Shown here piece by piece: positions 1-9,374 of a stretch of DNA of 9,374 nucleotides (position 1 is the stretch's first letter; each line of letters opens with the position of its first letter). The stretch is from the IMG/VR virus record IMGVR_UViG_2695420523_000014; one strand, 5' to 3'. The notes under the pieces are model-generated. The model made no database searches. It saw only the letters and a program-made list of their open reading frames with translations, and was not told where the DNA came from. Source of the DNA: a virus (taxonomy: Duplodnaviria; Heunggongvirae; Uroviricota; Caudoviricetes). The position numbers and the translations under genes were made by a program.

Positions 1-573
<573 letters not shown>

Positions 574-880: not shown

Positions 881-881
<1 letters not shown>
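582..881 (-). CDS. Small tail-fibre-associated protein (99 aa), translationally coupled to the J-like gene
   Basis: Its ATG (879-881) overlaps the TAA stop of the upstream J-like gene (881-883) as TAATG. The ORF track lists a GTG start at 887, but the overlapping ATG is more likely. It is a paralog of the 226-573 ORF (CWDASGRLIVD versus VYNSAGALTID; EFYCIPGTNAF versus GKYCFPGSAMF). Confidence 0.5.
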
Positions 882-4469
<3,588 letters not shown>

Positions 4470-4473
<4 letters not shown>

Positions 4474-5093
4474 TTGTATCTCCACGTTTGATCCTGATTC
4501 ACCTGTCCTAATAAACTAAAGTATTCATCCCCTTTATAGAGAGATTGATATACTGAATTGGCAGCAATTAGTGGTGGCTGTCTGTCCAGCTTCTTATAAA
4601 TGCTATTCACGTAAACTGTCATTTCATTCGTTTTTTCATTTGGATCGGCTACTGCCTGAATGTAATCAACAAATCCTGAGAACATCAGCATGGAGTACAA
4701 TACAGTACTGTTATAGGGATTCAGGATAACGAGTGTAATATTCATCTGTGCATCTTTAAGGAAGCCCCCTAAAGCAAGTGCTCTTACACTCGTATTCACA
4801 TTACTAATTTTGAAGTTAATCGCATCGTTGTTGATCCCCTTCTGTTCGCTGAAAGAAGGCAATGAACCACTAATGATATCGGGAAAACTAATGTACTGGT
4901 TGCCATTCAGATCAATATCAATAAGTGAATCAGTCCAGTGAAAACCATTTGTACCTTTCGGGAGTACATCAAAACAGGTAACATGCACACCTAAACTCAT
5001 TACATCCATGACACTGAGGCGTGTTTTAGTCGTGCCACGAACTAACTTCCAGTACTTCAATAATGTTGTGTTAGTTAAAATACTTTCGTCCAT
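4470..5093 (-). CDS. Minor tail protein, lambda L-like (tail tip)
   Basis: 207-aa ORF whose ATG (5091-5093) overlaps the stop of the upstream gene as TAATG. It follows the M-like gene and precedes the K-like gene. There is loose motif resemblance to the lambda gpL N-terminal region, but no C-terminal Cys cluster. Confidence 0.6.
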
Positions 5094-5650
5094 TAGATAA
5101 TATTCTCCGTTGCCTTTAATGTGATATTCATGATGTTGCCAACGGGCATTGTATAATCATTATCGGGATCTAATACGGCTTCAATCTGAATGTTGTTATA
5201 GATAATAGCCTCATTTGCCTGTACGGTATTTTGCAGTACAGGGAATACGATTAATGAAGTACTGGTACGGTCAATAATTCTGTATATCTTTTTATGATTC
5301 GTAAACTGGATTAACTCACCAACTGCCATTGAATTATTATTAGTCGTGATTACCCTTGTACCCTTAGAAGCGATTGACTGACTTGTTAATGCCCCGCTCT
5401 GTGCTCCCCTGTAAGTACCCATCAATCCGAGCGAGAAAGTGAAGGATTTACCCTGAGAGTACTGAGCCAGAAAGTTTTGAACCTCTCCAATACTGGAAGG
5501 ATTGAAACTTAACTGAAACTGAATCTCATAGTATTGAATGCCTGTACTTCTCATGATACGTTGACCTGTCCATGTTTGATTTGAGTAAACAGGCTCAGTA
5601 CTTTTAATCTGGAAGTTTGTTATTTTTATTTGATTTGAAAAAGATGCCAT
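5093..5650 (-). CDS. Minor tail / distal tail protein, lambda M-like
   Basis: 185-aa ORF with ATG at 5648-5650 and GAGG about 5 nt upstream. It is the first tail-tip gene after the tape measure gene. The stretch GEVQNFLAQYSQGKSFTFSL loosely resembles lambda gpM from memory. Confidence 0.6.
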   Translation of the reverse strand: MASFSNQIKITNFQIKSTEPVYSNQTWTGQRIMRSTGIQYYEIQFQLSFNPSSIGEVQNFLAQYSQGKSFTFSLGLMGTYRGAQSGALTSQSIASKGTRVITTNNNSMAVGELIQFTNHKKIYRIIDRTSTSLIVFPVLQNTVQANEAIIYNNIQIEAVLDPDNDYTMPVGNIMNITLKATENII

Positions 5651-5685
5651 TGTAACCTCAACAATCCTTGTTTCGAGTATTTATC

Positions 5686-6315
5686 ATGATTGACTTCTTA
5701 AATCACATATTGAGAATATTGCCAATATTATCAGCTATTGCATTCCCTGTTCTTGTGGCAGTAGTGACTCTTTACATAGTCTACAGGAGTGGAAGCACAT
5801 CTATCATTGCCAATAAGATATGGGGGATATTCATTGGTGAGAAAAACTTCTTCGATGAGAAATTAGCACTAAAAGAAAAGGTTGAGCATGACGTTGCTAA
5901 ATTCAATTTCAAAGTTAACCTGAAAACCAAAAATCTCAGTCAAATTGAACAGTTTTATAATTTTCTGGAGAAGTTCGACCTGGATATAGATAGCTTTAAA
6001 GGTCTGCGTGATTGCTACTTGCCTTCATTGCAGAAAGTCAAAAAAACATCTAAAAGTGAAATGTTTAATATTAGTCTGGTTGTAATATTAGTAGGTGGCT
6101 TTTTGCTACCTATATTTGTTGGCGTTTTTATATTTAAAGACATTTCCACTTTTGACGGTGGTAAATTAGCAAATCTATTCATTTACACGTTTCTCATTTC
6201 TGCCAGTACAGTGTTAAGTTTTAGTCAGTTACTTAGAAAGATTAAGTCGATCAATACCCGCAAATTGATCTATAAAAAGAAATGCGAATATCTTGCAAAG
6301 AGAAAGCCCATGTAG
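5686..6315 (+). CDS. Hypothetical membrane protein with three predicted transmembrane helices, encoded opposite to the tail operon; unknown family
   Basis: It is the only long ORF in the 672-bp gap between the tape measure stop and the M-like start, and it lies on the other strand. The ATG at 5686 is preferred over the TTG at 5668 given in the ORF track, but neither has a strong Shine-Dalgarno. Hand-counted GC is about 32-37 percent against roughly 42-55 percent in the flanking tail genes. A 209-codon open frame in such AT-rich DNA is unlikely by chance. The protein has an N-terminal hydrophobic helix, a Lys/Glu-rich middle, two further hydrophobic helices and a basic C-tail. Confidence 0.7.
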   Translation: MIDFLNHILRILPILSAIAFPVLVAVVTLYIVYRSGSTSIIANKIWGIFIGEKNFFDEKLALKEKVEHDVAKFNFKVNLKTKNLSQIEQFYNFLEKFDLDIDSFKGLRDCYLPSLQKVKKTSKSEMFNISLVVILVGGFLLPIFVGVFIFKDISTFDGGKLANLFIYTFLISASTVLSFSQLLRKIKSINTRKLIYKKKCEYLAKRKPM

Positions 6316-6324
6316 GGCTTTCTT
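6300..6324. terminator. Perfect 9-bp stem-loop shared by the convergent 3' ends of the membrane-protein gene and the tape measure gene; candidate bidirectional terminator
   Basis: AGAAAGCCC (6301-6309), loop ATGTA, GGGCTTTCT (6315-6323). The plus-strand TAG stop lies in the loop and right arm, and the minus-strand TAA stop is at 6323-6325. The downstream U-tract is weak on the plus strand and moderate (CUUUG) on the minus strand. Confidence 0.35.
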
Positions 6325-8542
6325 AAGTATTCCGTCTCTGACTGCTTCTTACGGCCTGAGTAACGCTATTAGCGTGCTTCTTCAACATTTCATTGAATTT
6401 CTTATCATCACCTGCAACGTCTCCCTGAATGATCAAGGGGGCGTTGACGGTGATATCTCCAGCAGTACCACCGCCTTTCTCCTGAGTATCGAGGAACTTA
6501 GTCAGCTTCTTGTTAGCTTCTGGCTGTACTACACGCTCACCGGCTTTCAGTATAAAACTTTTGTTATCCATACCAGCGGGCAATTCATCTACACCGCCGT
6601 GGAACTGCCCACTTGCAGCCCCCTTCGCAGTACTGATAATGCTCATACCTAACGATAGTACCTGAGCGTAGTTTGCGAGGCTTGCGGGCCACGGCGTAGC
6701 AAGAGCCTGTGCTAATGCTGATTGTATTGAGAGTACTGTCTGAGCAATAGTAATGCCCTTACTCAATGCGAATGCCGCCTGTGCTGCCCCTGAAGATTCA
6801 CCAAACGCTGCGACCATGCCATCACTTAAGGATTGGGCTGTATCGCTGAAAATTGTTAGTTGTTGCTGTGCATTCTGGTTACTGATATCGATAGCCTGAG
6901 CATTATACTTTGCCGTAATCTCTGCCTTTCTCTTTTCATAATCTTCATGCCCCTTCAGTAATAAATCATTCTGCTGAAGTTCTGCATTCATGGCATCCTG
7001 ATTATCTTTCAGTAATTGATCGGTATTATCATAACTTAAGGGATTACCACCATTGATACGCTGATTTTGCTGATCTGTTAGGAATGATTTTTGAGTACTG
7101 TTCAGTACACCAGAAGAAATTAAGCTATTTGTATCTTTCAGACCCTGATTGGGATCTTGATAACCAACCATTGAATTGATTAAATCATTACGTTGTTTAG
7201 TACCAGAAGCATTTGCGGCATCGACATATTCTTTAAGTTGCTTTGGTGATATTCCAAGTACCTGAGCACTGTCCGTAATCGTCTTAAGAAGGGCTTTCTG
7301 TTGCCTGTCGAACTGCTGTAGGCGTACTTTGAAGCCCTCTTCCCCGACCTGAGCAAGTGCCGTTTCAAGATTACGCTGTGCCTGTAGCCTTTTTGTATCA
7401 GCCTGCTTTTGGACTTGTTCTGCCTGTTTCCGTAGCTGATCGGCTTTCTTCTGAGCATCCTCACGTTCTTTAGCTTCGTCTTTCCAGCCACCTTGCGGAG
7501 CCGTAACAGTAGCTATGTCATTGCGAAAGTTATTCACGAGTCCTTCAAGATTGGCTTGAGCACTGGCGTACACACTCTGCTTGCCATTATCCATACTGCC
7601 AGTTTGCAAGGCTGCACCCTGGTAGTTTAAAGCCCCGGAGGTGCGTAACTTTTCCCATATGTCTAAAAAATCCTGTAATGACCCCTTCGACGTTTTAATC
7701 TTCTCGTTCAGATCTTCAAATAGCCCTGCTTCATGGGGCTTCTGATTGGCGGCATCCAGTATTGCATTCATTGCCCCCACGAGTGGATTCAGACCATCAG
7801 CGATAGTACCTTTGATACGGGTTGTCAGCTTATCCAGATTCTTATCGAACTCTGCATAGTTTGCCGCTGCCTCGTTACTCACTGCGGCGTTCTGGCCCTG
7901 TATGTACGTCATTGCATCGGCTTCAGTATTGAACTGCTGTAGAGTACTGATCATGTGGCTTGAATCACTCGCCAGTGTTTCCATGACGTTGACGATTTCG
8001 GCCTGTGACTTACCTGCATCCCGCATGGCATAAAACGTGTGGATCACGGCCTGCATACCGCCATCTGCTTGTTTAAGGTACTTGTTATATTGCTGTAGGT
8101 TCAGCCCGTACTCTTTAAGATCGTCACTAACACCGCCGCCAGCACGGAACGCATCCCCGAGTTTATCGAGCGTATCCTTGTTGAAATCCCCAAACTTATC
8201 CATTTCAAGCCCAAGACCGCTAAACGCCGCCAATAGCTGCTGAAGCTGCATGACGGACAATCCAGCACTACGACTGATTTCATTCATTTCACGCACATAT
8301 TCGCGGCTTGAATTGACCAGTGCAGTAAGGCCACCAATACCAATTGCAGCAGCCCCCGCTAAACCTGTCATTGCCGTACCGAAACCGCCAGCAAGCCCAC
8401 TAAAACTGCCAGTGAGATCTTCAATCACACCGCCAGCATTTGAACCGAATTCTTCAAGTGATGAGGTGCCTTGTCGCAAAGCACGCTGTAAACCTGACGT
8501 ATCCCCGTCAATATCAAAACGAATTCTATTATTATTTGCCAT
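6323..8542 (-). CDS. Tail tape measure protein (739 aa)
   Basis: Long ORF immediately downstream of the G/G-T chaperone pair, with AGGAAAG 5-6 nt upstream of the ATG. It has a Gly/Ala-rich hydrophobic segment near the N-terminus, a long Q/K/E-rich coiled-coil-like middle and a hydrophobic C-terminal region, all typical of tape measure proteins. Confidence 0.85.
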   Translation of the reverse strand: MANNNRIRFDIDGDTSGLQRALRQGTSSLEEFGSNAGGVIEDLTGSFSGLAGGFGTAMTGLAGAAAIGIGGLTALVNSSREYVREMNEISRSAGLSVMQLQQLLAAFSGLGLEMDKFGDFNKDTLDKLGDAFRAGGGVSDDLKEYGLNLQQYNKYLKQADGGMQAVIHTFYAMRDAGKSQAEIVNVMETLASDSSHMISTLQQFNTEADAMTYIQGQNAAVSNEAAANYAEFDKNLDKLTTRIKGTIADGLNPLVGAMNAILDAANQKPHEAGLFEDLNEKIKTSKGSLQDFLDIWEKLRTSGALNYQGAALQTGSMDNGKQSVYASAQANLEGLVNNFRNDIATVTAPQGGWKDEAKEREDAQKKADQLRKQAEQVQKQADTKRLQAQRNLETALAQVGEEGFKVRLQQFDRQQKALLKTITDSAQVLGISPKQLKEYVDAANASGTKQRNDLINSMVGYQDPNQGLKDTNSLISSGVLNSTQKSFLTDQQNQRINGGNPLSYDNTDQLLKDNQDAMNAELQQNDLLLKGHEDYEKRKAEITAKYNAQAIDISNQNAQQQLTIFSDTAQSLSDGMVAAFGESSGAAQAAFALSKGITIAQTVLSIQSALAQALATPWPASLANYAQVLSLGMSIISTAKGAASGQFHGGVDELPAGMDNKSFILKAGERVVQPEANKKLTKFLDTQEKGGGTAGDITVNAPLIIQGDVAGDDKKFNEMLKKHANSVTQAVRSSQRRNT

Positions 8543-9220
8543 TCTTCTTTCCTAATACCTGATTCCTGATAGCGTCACCGATTGATTTAATATCATTGGC
8601 CTGAGCTTCTTTTTTCTTCTGTTCTTTCACTTCTGCTTTTTCTTGTGTAGTGAGATCGCTATTAAAAACATCCAGAAAATCAAAATCAGCAACTTTGATA
8701 CTACGCCGTGCCTCTGGCGTGAGATTCCCATTACTTATCGTGGTGTAATAGCACTGATAAGCATGTTTCAACATCTCAATTTGCGTACCTGTCGGTTCTA
8801 TATAGGCATCGTAAACCATAAGCATATCGAGTACTTCAGGATCTAAATTAAAGTACTCATCTGGTGATAAACCACGTTTATTGACCATTTTACAGAAGTA
8901 CCGCAGATGGCTATCACATCTTACTTTTTTTCGACTTCATCCACTGGATTACTGTCACTGACAAGTTGAATAATTGCCTGATAGATTTTGCCCTGCATAA
9001 CATAATCAATGCTGTTGACATTAATACGCCCATCAATATCTTCATCAGAGAAAATAGGATCACCATTTTCATCTTTAACACAAAGAATGAGAGTATTTGC
9101 TACATCAGTACAGTTTGCAAAATCGCGACCATTTGGACGGTGGATGTAGAGCGTGAAGCCTTCGATCTCAAATGGTTTTAGCTCTGGTTGTAGTTTCTTT
9201 TTTAGTTCCATTAAATTCAT
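8532..9220 (-). CDS. Tail assembly chaperone G-T fusion, made by a programmed -1 frameshift at 8924-8930 (about 229 aa)
   Basis: The -1 frame after GAA AAA AAG is open (KKVRCDSHLRYFCK) and runs straight into the 118-aa ORF at 8532-8888. That ORF has no Shine-Dalgarno of its own, and its 3' end overlaps the tape measure start by 11 nt. This is the canonical G/G-T arrangement of siphovirus tails. Confidence 0.65.
8921..9220 (-). CDS. Tail assembly chaperone, lambda G-like (99 aa)
   Basis: ATG at 9218-9220 with GGAG 7 nt upstream. It is a small acidic protein directly upstream of the tape measure gene and ends in a slippery A_AAA_AAG heptamer followed by TAA. Confidence 0.7.
   Translation of the reverse strand: MNLMELKKKLQPELKPFEIEGFTLYIHRPNGRDFANCTDVANTLILCVKDENGDPIFSDEDIDGRINVNSIDYVMQGKIYQAIIQLVSDSNPVDEVEKK
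8924..8930 (-). promoter_or_regulatory. Slippery heptanucleotide A_AAA_AAG (-1 programmed frameshift site), immediately followed by the zero-frame stop
   Basis: Minus-strand sequence is GTC GAA AAA AAG TAA. The heptamer is identical to the well-known dnaX-type slippery site. Confidence 0.6.
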
Positions 9221-9267: not shown

Positions 9268-9285
9268 ATTGGTGATGCTGCCAAC

Positions 9286-9374
9286 TTACTGATTTAGTGT
9301 ATGATGGTGTTTTTGAGGTGCTCCAGTGGCTTCTGTTTCTATCAGCTGTCCCTCCTGTTCAGCTACTGACGGGG
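9286..9374 (-). CDS. 3' end of an upstream gene (start outside window), possibly the major tail protein by position
   Basis: The minus-strand frame is open from the window edge to TAA at 9286-9288 and reads PSVAEQEGQLIETEATGAPQKHHHTLNQ. The functional call rests only on the usual order major tail, G, G-T, tape measure. The fragment is short enough to be a chance ORF. Confidence 0.35.
   Translation of the reverse strand, partial: PSVAEQEGQLIETEATGAPQKHHHTLNQ

What the first reader, a model, noticed from the sequence alone, without database searches (positions are those of the whole stretch)
5651..6322. Low-GC, opposite-strand membrane-protein gene inserted between the tape measure and M-like tail genes
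In lambda-like tail operons the tape measure gene is normally followed directly by the M-like gene. Here a 672-bp gap is filled by one gene on the other strand, with GC about 10 points below its neighbours. Its product is a roughly 210-aa protein with three hydrophobic helices, a charged middle and a basic C-tail that I cannot assign to any family. This layout is what is expected for a horizontally acquired accessory gene expressed from the prophage rather than a tail component. Plausible roles are superinfection exclusion, abortive infection or another membrane-acting defence function. The function is entirely inferred.
Basis: partly seen in the sequence, partly recalled or inferred. Interest (0 to 1): 0.8.

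Follow-up and report, generated by a model that had tools for sequence, protein, structure and literature searches.

The report
Swappable membrane-protein gene inside prophage tail operon
Between two tail genes of a decayed prophage lies a backwards-facing gene for a three-helix inner-membrane protein (uncharacterised family DUF6216); related phages leave this site empty or carry other genes there, so it is optional cargo, probably protecting the host from other phages, not a tail part.

Summary
A 209-aa ORF (5686-6315, + strand) fills the 672-bp gap between the tape measure gene (6323-8542, -) and the distal tail protein gene (5093-5650, -). It is a real gene: dN/dS is 0.08 against a 90% homolog. 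It has three hydrophobic helices, a conserved roughly 95-residue loop predicted to be cytoplasmic, and a polybasic tail.

In 32 related loci found through the distal tail protein, this junction holds:
- nothing (31-130 bp) in 17;
- DUF6216 in 5;
- an unrelated 190-aa single-helix protein in 8, including phages whose flanking proteins are 97-99% identical to the window's;
- a DUF726-like hydrolase in 2.

All three cargoes are antisense and low in GC. So this is a variable cargo slot (a moron hotspot), not a tail component.

Longer DUF6216 relatives sit just inside one end of Tn7-like transposons, or beside Abi_2 or Xre genes.

Function is only inferred. The best guess is a prophage-expressed inner-membrane superinfection-exclusion or defence protein. 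P22 SieA and HK97 gp15 are analogues in layout, but the protein is not homologous to SieA. No promoter, known fold or known defence family was found.

This is a new member of a known kind, of moderate interest.

The parts
5686..6315 (+). DUF6216-family gene encoding a 209-aa predicted inner-membrane protein. TM1 is about residues 10-32, followed by a conserved loop (33-128) predicted cytoplasmic, TM2 at 129-150, a 12-residue loop predicted periplasmic, TM3 at 163-183 and a polybasic tail at 184-209.
   Evidence: ORF. Pfam PF19723 at E=4.8e-21, 75.7 bits against a 27.3-bit cut-off. dN/dS 0.08. Hydropathy and charge distribution. AlphaFold2 model with pLDDT 86.3 and pTM 0.73.
5651..6322 (.). Variable cargo slot between the tape measure stop codon and the distal tail protein start codon. 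In relatives it is empty or holds one of three unrelated antisense genes.
   Evidence: Tally over 32 loci anchored on the distal tail protein: 17 empty, 5 DUF6216, 8 a 190-aa single-TM protein, 2 a DUF726-like hydrolase. Similarity to loci carrying the 190-aa gene is lost at the tape measure stop codon on one side and across the ~35-nt spacer upstream of the distal tail protein ATG on the other.
6300..6324 (.). 10-bp stem / 5-nt loop hairpin (GAGAAAGCCC-AUGUA-GGGCUUUCUU) between the two convergent genes. The DUF6216 stop codon lies in the loop and the tape measure stop codon at the stem base. It is a candidate bidirectional terminator.
   Evidence: -16.6 kcal/mol, z=-2.3 on the + strand and -2.8 on the - strand. 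The stem is conserved in the loci that carry DUF6216. It is not followed by a T-run on the + strand, and the terminator scan did not call it.
5677..5684 (-). ATAAATAC motif about 27 nt upstream of the distal tail protein ATG, with a GAGG Shine-Dalgarno sequence between them. It is a candidate phage promoter element for the downstream tail genes. The DUF6216 ATG lies 1 nt away on the other strand.
   Evidence: The motif is present 25-35 nt upstream of the distal tail protein gene in nearly all related loci, occupied or empty. It recurs upstream of other phage genes in the same orientation.
6323..8542 (-). Tape measure protein gene (739 aa), convergent with the cargo gene. Its C-terminal 150 aa are far more conserved among relatives than the rest of the protein.
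   Evidence: PHROG 13674 at E=2.7e-88. C-terminal 150 aa are 81-99% identical in loci where the best full-length segment is only 33-55% identical.
5093..5650 (-). Distal tail protein gene (185 aa, pb9-like).
   Evidence: PHROG 1302 at E=2.5e-17. Pfam DTP-pb9 B-domain at E=1.7e-5, 25.2 bits against a 27-bit cut-off.
1..243 (.). End of an IS100 (IS21-family) element that truncates the prophage at the tail-tip side.
   Evidence: 99.6% identity to IS100 istB-end copies in many phage records.
9270..9374 (.). End of an IS1 element that truncates the prophage just upstream of the tail assembly chaperone gene.
   Evidence: 100% identity to IS1 in P1, SfIV and other records.

Best explanation
The gene is optional cargo (a 'moron') in a fixed, swappable slot between the tape measure and distal tail protein genes. 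The host phage belongs to an uncharacterised lineage of temperate siphophages of Enterobacteriaceae. In this window the prophage is a remnant cut down by IS100 and IS1.

The product is a short-form member of Pfam DUF6216. It is predicted to sit in the inner membrane with its N-terminus outside and its C-terminus inside. That places the conserved roughly 95-residue helical domain (invariant R34, G36, G51, D69, F73, N74, N78) and the polybasic tail on the cytoplasmic face.

The proposed mechanism is inferred, not shown. The gene would be transcribed antisense to the silent late operon in a lysogen. The protein would protect the cell against superinfecting phages at the membrane. The most likely route is blocking DNA entry through the conduit formed by an incoming siphophage's tape measure protein, as P22 SieA and HK97 gp15 do for their own phage types. 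A less likely route is acting as a triggered membrane-disrupting abortive-infection effector.

Confidence differs by layer:
- real gene: about 0.97;
- accessory cargo of a variable slot rather than a tail component: about 0.9;
- some anti-phage or anti-mobile-element protective role: about 0.5;
- specifically an injection block: about 0.3.
For: **Real gene.** dN/dS is 0.08, and the architecture is conserved down to 31% identity.

**Accessory slot.**
- Of 32 loci anchored on the distal tail protein, 17 are empty, 5 carry DUF6216, 8 carry an unrelated 190-aa single-TM protein and 2 carry a DUF726-like hydrolase. All cargoes are antisense and 31-37% GC.
- Flanking proteins 97-99% identical to the window's enclose a different cargo in L018-L020.
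- On the tape measure side, similarity is lost at the stop codon.

**Membrane protein and topology.**
- Three hydrophobic helices, with K/R concentrated in the middle loop (17) and the tail (11).
- A confident AlphaFold2 model.
- Long-form homologs carry an extra roughly 90-aa domain with two conserved cysteines exactly in the TM2-TM3 loop, which fits a periplasmic location for that loop.

**Association with mobile elements and defence genes.**
- Every short form whose context was examined lies in this prophage slot.
- Long forms are the first gene inside one end of Tn7-like transposons, or lie beside Abi_2 or an Xre regulator plus a variable giant protein.
- The same prophage lineage has a second variable locus carrying PADLOC PDC-S20 (a KAP NTPase, E=1.5e-83) or AbiGi.

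**Positional analogues.**
- P22 sieA encodes a 3-TM inner-membrane protein. It lies on the opposite strand, 22 bp after the gene for ejection protein gp16, and its most conserved motif is cytoplasmic.
- HK97 gene 15 is a moron next to the tape measure gene. Its inner-membrane product blocks DNA entry in a tail-dependent way (PMC3594210).
Against: - There is no experimental or expression evidence.
- No convincing sigma-70 promoter lies upstream. Only 35 nt separate the two start codons, and the one scan hit ends after the ATG. There is no Shine-Dalgarno sequence.
- The hairpin lacks a T-run on the + strand.
- No hit in PADLOC, PHROGs or NCBIfam.
- No homology to P22 SieA (hhalign probability 1%).
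- No informative structural neighbour in PDB or BFVD.
- The periplasmic exposure of the short form is tiny (9 + 12 residues). That is awkward for a protein meant to meet an incoming tail in the periplasm.
- An essential gene, the endolysin, is also antisense in this lineage's late region. Orientation alone therefore does not prove expression in the lysogen.
- None of the three cargoes is a recognised defence gene.
Confidence: 0.5

Rival explanations
1. Lysogenic-conversion gene unrelated to phage defence. The membrane protein would change host envelope physiology (stress tolerance, transport, colicin or serum resistance, as with lambda Bor or Lom) and so raise lysogen fitness.
For: It has the same moron features: a dispensable slot, low GC and antisense orientation. 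No defence-family match was found. One alternative cargo is a DUF726-like alpha/beta hydrolase, which is not an obvious defence gene. Morons have diverse roles (PMC3594210).
Against: Long-form relatives travel with transposon backbones and lie next to Abi_2, patatin or Xre-regulated giant proteins. Those neighbourhoods are typical of conflict systems rather than housekeeping. The conserved part is predicted cytoplasmic and nothing substantial is exposed on the surface.
Confidence: 0.2
2. Abortive-infection-type effector. A cytoplasmic sensor domain detects an infection cue and the TM2-TM3 hairpin then permeabilises the inner membrane, in the manner of RexB or SLATT proteins.
For: The protein is single-gene, membrane-embedded and has a conserved cytoplasmic domain. 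There is a weak sub-threshold match of residues 119-178 to Pfam DUF4231 (E=0.054). From my own recollection, not checked here, DUF4231 belongs to the SLATT 2-TM effector group. One long form is adjacent to Abi_2.
Against: The DUF4231 match scores 14.4 bits against a 24.7-bit cut-off and covers hydrophobic helices, which often match spuriously. No partner sensor or nucleotide-signalling gene lies in the slot. There is no PADLOC hit.
Confidence: 0.15
3. Lytic-cycle accessory of the phage itself, for example a holin-, antiholin- or lysis-timing-like membrane protein, or a helper of the phage's own DNA injection or tail assembly at the membrane.
For: The N-out/C-in topology with three TM helices and a highly basic C-terminal tail resembles class I holins (the holin comparison is from general knowledge). 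The lineage's endolysin gene is also antisense within the late region. DUF6216 has stayed in this slot across deep divergence of the phage.
Against: It is absent from 27 of 32 related loci, including near-identical phages, so it is not required. It is 209 aa with a 96-residue soluble domain, unlike holins. It lies about 6 kb from the endolysin, and a separate holin candidate exists (GTA_holin_3TM, weak). Long forms occur in transposons and islands with no phage genes.
Confidence: 0.1
4. Inert passenger or decaying gene. Under this reading the ORF is intact only because the insertion and the IS-mediated truncation are recent, and it has no current function.
For: The window is a prophage remnant bounded by IS100 and IS1. 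No promoter was identified.
Against: There is strong purifying selection (dN/dS 0.08). Invariant residues hold across homologs of 20-90% identity. The protein is 100% identical to the copy in longer prophage contigs that retain the lysis genes and genes beyond them (L002, L003).
Confidence: 0.05

Closest known systems
P22 SieA (superinfection exclusion, Salmonella phage P22)
   Same: SieA is a small inner-membrane protein with three predicted TM helices and no signal peptide, and its most conserved motif is on the cytoplasmic side. Its gene lies on the strand opposite the late operon, convergent with and 22 bp after the gene for a DNA-injection conduit protein (gp16). It blocks DNA entry. Here the gene is convergent with the tape measure gene and its stop codon lies 7 nt from the tape measure stop codon.
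   Different: There is no detectable homology (hhalign probability 1%). SieA is 162-164 aa and lacks the 96-residue loop domain. It belongs to a podophage and targets ejection proteins rather than a tape measure protein. The function of DUF6216 is untested.
HK97 gp15 moron (YebO-like superinfection exclusion protein)
   Same: It is the prototype moron. It sits inside a siphophage tail operon next to the tape measure gene and is expressed from the prophage. Its inner-membrane product blocks DNA entry without blocking the receptor, and exclusion depends on the incoming phage's tail region (PMC3594210).
   Different: The paper calls gp15 a small protein of the YebO family. [quoted passage not shown] DUF6216 matched no PHROG family at E<=0.1. 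It is antisense, lies on the other side of the tape measure gene, and has three TM helices plus a cytoplasmic domain.
Defence or accessory hotspots of temperate phages and satellites (for example the P2 and P4 hotspots; second variable locus of this same lineage)
   Same: There is a fixed position flanked by conserved genes where unrelated low-GC cargo genes replace one another among close relatives, and the position is empty in others. The same lineage's other variable locus holds PADLOC PDC-S20 or AbiGi. Hotspot concept: the preprint listed (title and abstract only) and general knowledge.
   Different: The slot lies inside the tail operon between the tape measure and distal tail protein genes. 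It holds single small genes only. None of its three cargo families is a recognised defence system.
Long-form DUF6216 proteins of Gammaproteobacteria (Aeromonas, Marinobacterium, Neptunomonas, Nitrincola)
   Same: They share TM1, the conserved RSG...N[KR][IL]W...G.K.F...D[IV]x[RK]FN domain, TM2, TM3 and a basic tail. They are carried on mobile elements.
   Different: They are 260-305 aa, with an extra roughly 90-aa domain containing two cysteines between TM2 and TM3. They are encoded just inside one end of Tn7-like transposons, or beside Xre, Abi_2 or giant proteins, and not in phages.

Membership tests
Pfam DUF6216 (PF19723) | Score above the curated gathering threshold for the family HMM | tested here: met
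   E=4.8e-21, 75.7 bits against a 27.3-bit cut-off. All homologs carry PF19723.
Pfam DUF6216 (PF19723) | Full-length architecture of the 270-position model | tested here: not met
   Only profile positions 8-141 align, to residues 11-144. The short form lacks the roughly 90-aa insert between TM2 and TM3 that long forms have. TM3 and the tail do align in my own alignment. It is therefore a truncated subfamily.
Moron (Juhala/Hendrix sense) | Present in some genomes and absent at the same position in close relatives | tested here: met
   The slot is empty (31-130 bp) in 17 of 32 related loci. A different gene sits between flanking proteins 97-99% identical to the window's.
Moron (Juhala/Hendrix sense) | Nucleotide composition different from the flanking genes | tested here: met
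   33.7% GC against 46.5% for the tape measure gene and 42.4% for the window. It is only 3.8 points below the distal tail protein gene at 37.5%. All cargo types are 31-37% GC.
Moron (Juhala/Hendrix sense) | Own promoter and terminator | tested here: inconclusive
   A 10-bp hairpin lies at the 3' end, but with no T-run on the + strand, and the scan did not call it. The only promoter-like hit, at 5658-5687, ends after the ATG. The cargo ATG abuts the conserved ATAAATAC motif, so there is no room for a private promoter inside the cassette.
Moron (Juhala/Hendrix sense) | Expressed from the repressed prophage | not testable with these tools
   This needs RNA-seq, 5'-RACE or a reporter fusion in a lysogen.
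P22 SieA family | Sequence homology to SieA types A-C, including the cytoplasmic FxRYPxEAxxFNK motif | tested here: not met
   hhalign of P22 SieA against the DUF6216 profile gives probability 1.1%.
P22 SieA family | Blocks DNA injection of superinfecting phage | not testable with these tools
   This needs phage challenge and DNA-entry assays.
Any PHROG family (the library should include families for HK97 gp15, T4 Imm, RexB and holins; its contents were not checked) | HMM match at E<=0.1 | tested here: not met
   0 families. tblastn against 50,697 phage records found no match.
Known or candidate defence systems (PADLOC-DB v2) | HMM match to a defence-system protein | tested here: not met
   0 families at E<=10 for the window protein, and none at E<=0.01 for the long forms P0109 and P0113.
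Class I holin | Small (under about 150 aa) 3-TM protein, essential for lysis, encoded with the endolysin in the late operon | tested here: not met
   The topology and basic tail resemble a holin. However, the protein is 209 aa with a 96-residue soluble domain, is antisense, lies about 6 kb from the endolysin in longer related prophage contigs, and is absent from most relatives.
SLATT / DUF4231-type 2-TM effectors | Significant match to a SLATT-clan model | tested here: inconclusive
   DUF4231 at E=0.054, 14.4 bits against a 24.7-bit cut-off, over residues 119-178. The match is sub-threshold and covers hydrophobic helices. That DUF4231 belongs to the SLATT clan is from memory.

The most novel reading that the evidence does not exclude
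DUF6216 is a previously unrecognised family of inner-membrane exclusion or defence proteins carried as a semi-permanent passenger by two kinds of mobile element. Temperate siphophages carry a short form in a dedicated antisense slot next to the tape measure gene. Tn7-like transposons carry a long form, with a periplasmic disulfide-bonded domain, as the end-proximal gene. In both cases the protein would block incoming foreign DNA at the cytoplasmic membrane. The tape measure / distal tail protein junction of this phage lineage would then be a compact hotspot, read from a promoter in the conserved flank, from which two further unknown protective genes could be mined: the 190-aa single-TM protein and the DUF726-like hydrolase.
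Probability: 0.3. Interest if true: 0.7.

Novelty: new member of a known kind. Interest (0 to 1): 0.5.

Why it matters
If the function is confirmed, DUF6216 would gain its first assigned role. The family is rare: 91 clusters among 1.84 billion representative proteins.

It would also add a new family to the few known inner-membrane proteins that stop phage DNA at the entry step. That step is poorly understood for siphophages and centres on the tape measure protein.

The slot itself is useful whatever the function turns out to be. Three unrelated cargo genes and an empty state sit between nearly identical flanks, which is a natural isogenic series for testing what prophage morons do.

The link between the phage short form and the long form at Tn7-like transposon ends suggests a membrane function shared across mobile element types.

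If the gene turns out to be an ordinary conversion gene or has no phenotype, the finding is a routine moron.

Tried and rejected
**Family and homology searches that found nothing useful**
- PHROGs, PADLOC and NCBIfam gave nothing for the window protein.
- tblastn against 50,697 phage records found no match.
- A profile search of PDB sequences found nothing at E<=10.

**Structure searches**
- Foldseek against BFVD and PDB found nothing below E=0.2.
- The afdb50 library was unavailable.

**Literature**
- 'DUF6216' appears once, incidentally, in a wastewater paper. 'PF19723' does not appear at all.

**Source and relatives of the window**
- No plasmid match.
- Among complete E. coli RefSeq genomes, only one shares the tail-tip half, and none has the gene.
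- No isolate phage is related. The best distal tail protein hit is 31.5% identical, in phage DCP80.

**Other features of the slot**
- Rfam found no RNA family in the window.
- The promoter scan gave 9 hits against 5.7 +/- 2.2 expected, and none is placed to serve the ATG. By eye I found two weak candidates inside the 5' end of the distal tail protein gene: TTGATT-17-TAACCT and TTGTTA-17-AAAGAT. They match only 7 and 8 of 12 consensus positions and are not conserved, so I do not claim them.
- Third-codon-position identity was compared for the first 25 codons of the distal tail protein gene against the rest. It is 0.66 against 0.55 in occupied loci, and 0.53 against 0.52 in empty ones. This is a weak hint, confounded by relatedness and recombination.

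**Ideas rejected**
- Homology to P22 SieA.
- That the giant proteins next to long-form DUF6216 form one family. The 1259-aa and 1431-aa proteins show no similarity.
- That DUF6216 is variable transposon cargo. It is the constant end-proximal gene, while the neighbours vary.
Full report
**What is in the window**

All long ORFs except one lie on the - strand and form a siphophage tail module:

| Gene | Coordinates | Evidence |
|---|---|---|
| Tail assembly chaperone-like gene | 8921-9220 | Pfam Phage_TAC_13 and PHROG 344, both weak |
| 118-aa ORF | 8532-8888 | no family match |
| Tape measure protein | 6323-8542 | PHROG 13674, E=2.7e-88 |
| Distal tail protein, pb9-like | 5093-5650 | PHROG 1302, E=2.5e-17 |
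| 207-aa tail protein | 4470-5093 | PHROG 2048 |
| DUF6950 protein | 4069-4485 | Pfam PF22262 |
| 1067-aa J-like tip protein | 881-4084 | Pfam Phage_Tail_Tip, PHROG 31 |

The module is cut at both ends by insertion sequences. Bases 1-243 are an IS100 end and bases 9270-9374 are an IS1 end. The window is therefore a prophage remnant, not a complete prophage.

**Checking the observation**

It contains one + strand ORF, ATG 5686 to TAG 6313-6315, of 209 aa.

The product has:
- hydrophobic segments at about 10-32, 129-150 and 163-183;
- a 96-residue charged middle;
- a tail with 11 K/R in 26 residues.

GC is 33.7%. That is 12.8 points below the tape measure gene but only 3.8 below the distal tail protein gene, so the compositional contrast is real but one-sided.

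The ORF is under strong purifying selection. dN/dS is 0.082 against the 90%-identical copy in L004.

**What family it belongs to**

It matches Pfam DUF6216 (PF19723) well above threshold (E=4.8e-21, 75.7 against 27.3 bits), but only over profile positions 8-141 of 270.

An exhaustive HMM search of 1.84 billion representative proteins found only 91 clusters at E<=1e-3. They fall into two forms:
- **Short forms** of 199-223 aa match along most or all of their length.
- **Long forms** of 260-305 aa share TM1, the conserved domain, TM2, TM3 and the basic tail. They carry an extra roughly 90-aa segment between TM2 and TM3 with a conserved Trp and two conserved Cys.

Across both forms R34, G36, G51, D69, F73, N74 and N78 are invariant.

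Topology was inferred as follows. The positive-inside rule places the conserved domain and the tail in the cytoplasm. The two-cysteine insert in the TM2-TM3 loop fits a periplasmic location for that loop. Both steps are inferences.

The family has no literature. It has no PHROG, PADLOC or NCBIfam match. It has no relative among solved structures by sequence.

AlphaFold2 models are confident: pLDDT 86.3 and pTM 0.73 for the window protein, and pLDDT 80.8 for a long form. They have no informative neighbours in PDB or BFVD.

**The slot is variable**

This is the main result.

Exact and near relatives of the protein lie in the same place, antisense between the tape measure and distal tail protein genes. 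This holds in E. coli, Scandinavium, Klebsiella aerogenes, Kosakonia, Phytobacter and other Enterobacteriaceae prophages, at 90, 71, 58, 57, 42 and 38% identity.

Taken alone, that could suggest a conserved component. I therefore retrieved loci through the distal tail protein instead, which does not bias towards DUF6216. That gave 23 IMG/VR contigs and 9 species-representative genomes, not de-replicated.

| Junction content | Loci |
|---|---|
| Empty (31-130 bp) | 17 |
| DUF6216 | 5 |
| Unrelated ~190-aa protein with one N-terminal TM helix (no Pfam or PADLOC match) | 8 |
| ~260-aa DUF726-like alpha/beta hydrolase with a GHSLG motif | 2 |

All three cargoes are antisense to the tail genes and 31-37% GC.

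L018-L020 carry the 190-aa gene between tape measure and distal tail proteins that are 97-99% identical to the window's. In the DNA alignment, similarity to the window is lost at the tape measure stop codon on one side. On the other side it fades across the roughly 35-nt spacer upstream of the distal tail protein ATG.

The flanks look like conserved anchors. The C-terminal 150 aa of the tape measure protein stay 81-99% identical in loci where the best-aligned segment of the whole protein drops to 33-55%.

DUF6216 also occupies the slot in a Pantoea prophage whose flanking proteins are only 53-55% identical, with DUF6216 itself at 31%. The association is therefore old or recurrent, not a one-off recent insertion.

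Among 2.9 million viral contigs, a DUF6216 profile found only five, and the four whose context was checked sit in this slot of this lineage.

**Signals around the gene**

Empty slots have a simple layout:
1. tape measure stop codon;
2. usually a GC-rich hairpin, often followed by a T-run;
3. a conserved (T)ATAAATA(C) motif;
4. about 20 nt with a Shine-Dalgarno sequence;
5. the distal tail protein ATG.

The motif recurs upstream of other genes of these phages in the same orientation. It is a plausible phage promoter element. It resembles the T4 late-promoter core TATAAATA, a comparison I make from memory.

In the window, a 10-bp hairpin (6300-6324, -16.6 kcal/mol) spans the stop codons of both convergent genes. 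The DUF6216 ATG lies 1 nt from the motif, which is at 5677-5684 on the - strand.

In the DUF6216-type cassette there is therefore no room for a private promoter. If the gene is expressed, transcription must start in the conserved flank, meaning the 5' end or ribosome-binding region of the distal tail protein gene read in antisense, or at the ATG itself.

The consensus scan found nothing convincing. Third-codon-position conservation at the 5' end of the distal tail protein gene is slightly raised in occupied loci only: 0.66 against 0.55, compared with 0.53 against 0.52 in empty loci. That is a weak hint and is confounded by relatedness. Expression remains untested.

**Context of the wider family**

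- In Aeromonas veronii, Marinobacterium lacunae and two unassigned contigs, the long form is the first gene inside one end of a Tn7-like element. The tnsA, tnsB, tnsC, tniQ and tniQ-HTH genes lie on the strand opposite DUF6216, with the last of them ending tail-to-tail against it.
- Four Aeromonas-type loci with different host flanks become identical exactly at 5'-TGTCGGATCTCATC..., about 480 bp upstream of the gene. Repeated ATCTCA motifs follow.
- Elsewhere, the long form sits with an Xre-type regulator and a giant protein with no Pfam match. The giant protein differs between loci: 1259 aa against 1431 aa with no similarity, and a patatin in Marinobacterium.
- In Nitrincola it sits beside an Abi_2 gene and IS elements.
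- The prophage lineage has a second variable locus near its end. It carries PADLOC PDC-S20 (a KAP NTPase, E=1.5e-83) in the very phage that encodes the window's exact protein, and AbiGi in others.

These are associations of the conflict-system type. None of them is a functional test.

**Most likely mechanism and rivals**

I commit to this reading. The gene is moron-type cargo whose product sits in the inner membrane of the lysogen and protects it from superinfection. The most likely route is interference with DNA entry through the conduit built by an incoming siphophage's tape measure protein.

The closest precedents are analogues in layout and architecture:
- **P22 sieA** encodes a 3-TM inner-membrane protein. 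Its gene is antisense and lies 22 bp after ejection-protein gene 16, and its best-conserved motif is cytoplasmic.
- **HK97 gene 15** is a moron beside the tape measure gene. Its membrane product blocks DNA entry in a tail-dependent way.

A profile comparison shows no homology to SieA (probability 1%), and no PHROG family matches. The statement is therefore 'may work like', not 'is a member of'.

Points against this reading:
- the short form exposes almost nothing to the periplasm;
- no promoter is evident;
- the lineage's endolysin gene is also antisense, so orientation alone is not proof of lysogenic expression.

The rivals are:
- a non-defence conversion gene (0.2);
- a triggered membrane-disrupting abortive-infection effector (0.15; the only sequence lead is a sub-threshold DUF4231 match);
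- a lytic-cycle accessory such as a holin-like protein (0.1; contradicted by dispensability, size and distance from the endolysin);
- an inert passenger (0.05; contradicted by purifying selection).

**Verdict**

The functional interpretation remains inference.

This is a new member of a known kind: a moron in a prophage hotspot, carrying an uncharacterised protein family. Interest is moderate. It is a well-delimited and experimentally tractable candidate, with an unexpected link to Tn7-like transposon ends, but nothing yet shows a new mechanism.

Noticed in passing
window 1-243 and 9270-9374; ORF 226-573 (-): The prophage is a remnant bounded by an IS100 end and an IS1 end. The 115-aa ORF at 226-573 matches only positions 1-123 of the 230-position PHROG 4524 profile and runs into the IS100 end. 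Related longer prophage contigs have a 215-218-aa DUF8377 gene at that position, so this gene appears to be truncated by the IS.
   Followed up: partly
window 5677-5684 (-); e.g. L023 4967-4974, L004 3401-3408, L001 8308-8315 and 11674-11681: A conserved (T)ATAAATA(C) motif lies 25-35 nt upstream of the distal tail protein ATG in nearly every related locus, whether occupied or empty. It recurs upstream of other phage genes in the same orientation. It is a candidate lineage-specific promoter and resembles the T4 late-promoter core (a comparison from memory).
   Followed up: partly
L018 4427-4999, L019, L020, L021, L030, L058, L059, L065 (- strand in locus orientation): Alternative slot cargo B is a roughly 190-aa protein with one N-terminal hydrophobic helix (…WQAASVIVAMILFGAQI…) and a helical soluble part. 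It has no Pfam, PADLOC or NCBIfam match. It is found in Cedecea, Citrobacter and Enterobacter prophages, and in viral contigs (L018-L020) whose flanking proteins are 97-99% identical to the window's.
   Followed up: partly
L027 4141-4923, L028 4149-4937: Alternative slot cargo C is a roughly 260-aa DUF726-like alpha/beta hydrolase (Pfam E=7e-13) with a GHSLG serine motif. It is also antisense and low in GC.
   Followed up: partly
L002 514-1803; L041/L042 919-1710; L004 61-1778: A second variable locus lies beyond the lysis genes, near the prophage end. It holds a KAP NTPase matching PADLOC PDC-S20 (E=1.5e-83) in L002, AbiGi in L041 and L042, and a mad2-like methyltransferase fragment plus unknown genes in L004.
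   Followed up: partly
L046 7500-8831, L047, L049, L052 (and L048, L050, L051, L068 without tns genes): Long-form DUF6216 is the first gene inside one end of Tn7-like transposons. The shared sequence starts at 5'-TGTCGGATCTCATC… about 480 bp upstream, followed by ATCTCA repeats. The tnsA-tnsB-tnsC-tniQ-tniQ/HTH17 genes lie on the opposite strand and end tail-to-tail against it. An Xre HTH gene and a variable large neighbour (1259-1261 aa, 1431 aa or patatin) lie on the other side. A conserved small ORF that gene finders did not call (…VTYQRLTEQEIEDLRKEM…) lies between the transposon end and DUF6216 on the opposite strand.
   Followed up: partly
L004 3411-3860 (+), L002 3477-3920 (+), L012, L016, L041, L044: The endolysin gene (Phage_lysozyme) of this phage lineage is also encoded antisense to the surrounding late genes in all six longer contigs examined that reach this region. 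Opposite-strand orientation in this lineage is therefore not restricted to accessory genes.
   Followed up: no
L017 818-1654 and 1631-1870: In one 2.8-kb metagenomic contig the distal tail protein gene is cut after about 80 codons. It is followed by a DUF4238 gene that matches the PADLOC 'DUF4238-Pers' candidate defence model (E=1.2e-13), right next to a 56%-identical DUF6216 gene. This could be a rearranged prophage or an assembly chimera.
   Followed up: no
L005 10647-12858, L008 4826-7037, L011 4824-7035: In several otherwise intact-looking relatives the tape measure gene is split into 639-aa and 107-aa ORFs. This is a frameshift or nonsense change near the conserved C-terminal end, next to the slot.
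   Followed up: no
window 6323-6775 (tape measure C-terminal 150 aa) versus the rest of 6323-8542: The last 150 residues of the tape measure protein are 81-99% identical across relatives, while the best-aligned segment of the whole protein falls to 33-55% in some of them. Together with the conserved N-terminus of the distal tail protein, this gives conserved flanks on both sides of the cargo slot, which could serve as recombination anchors.
   Followed up: partly
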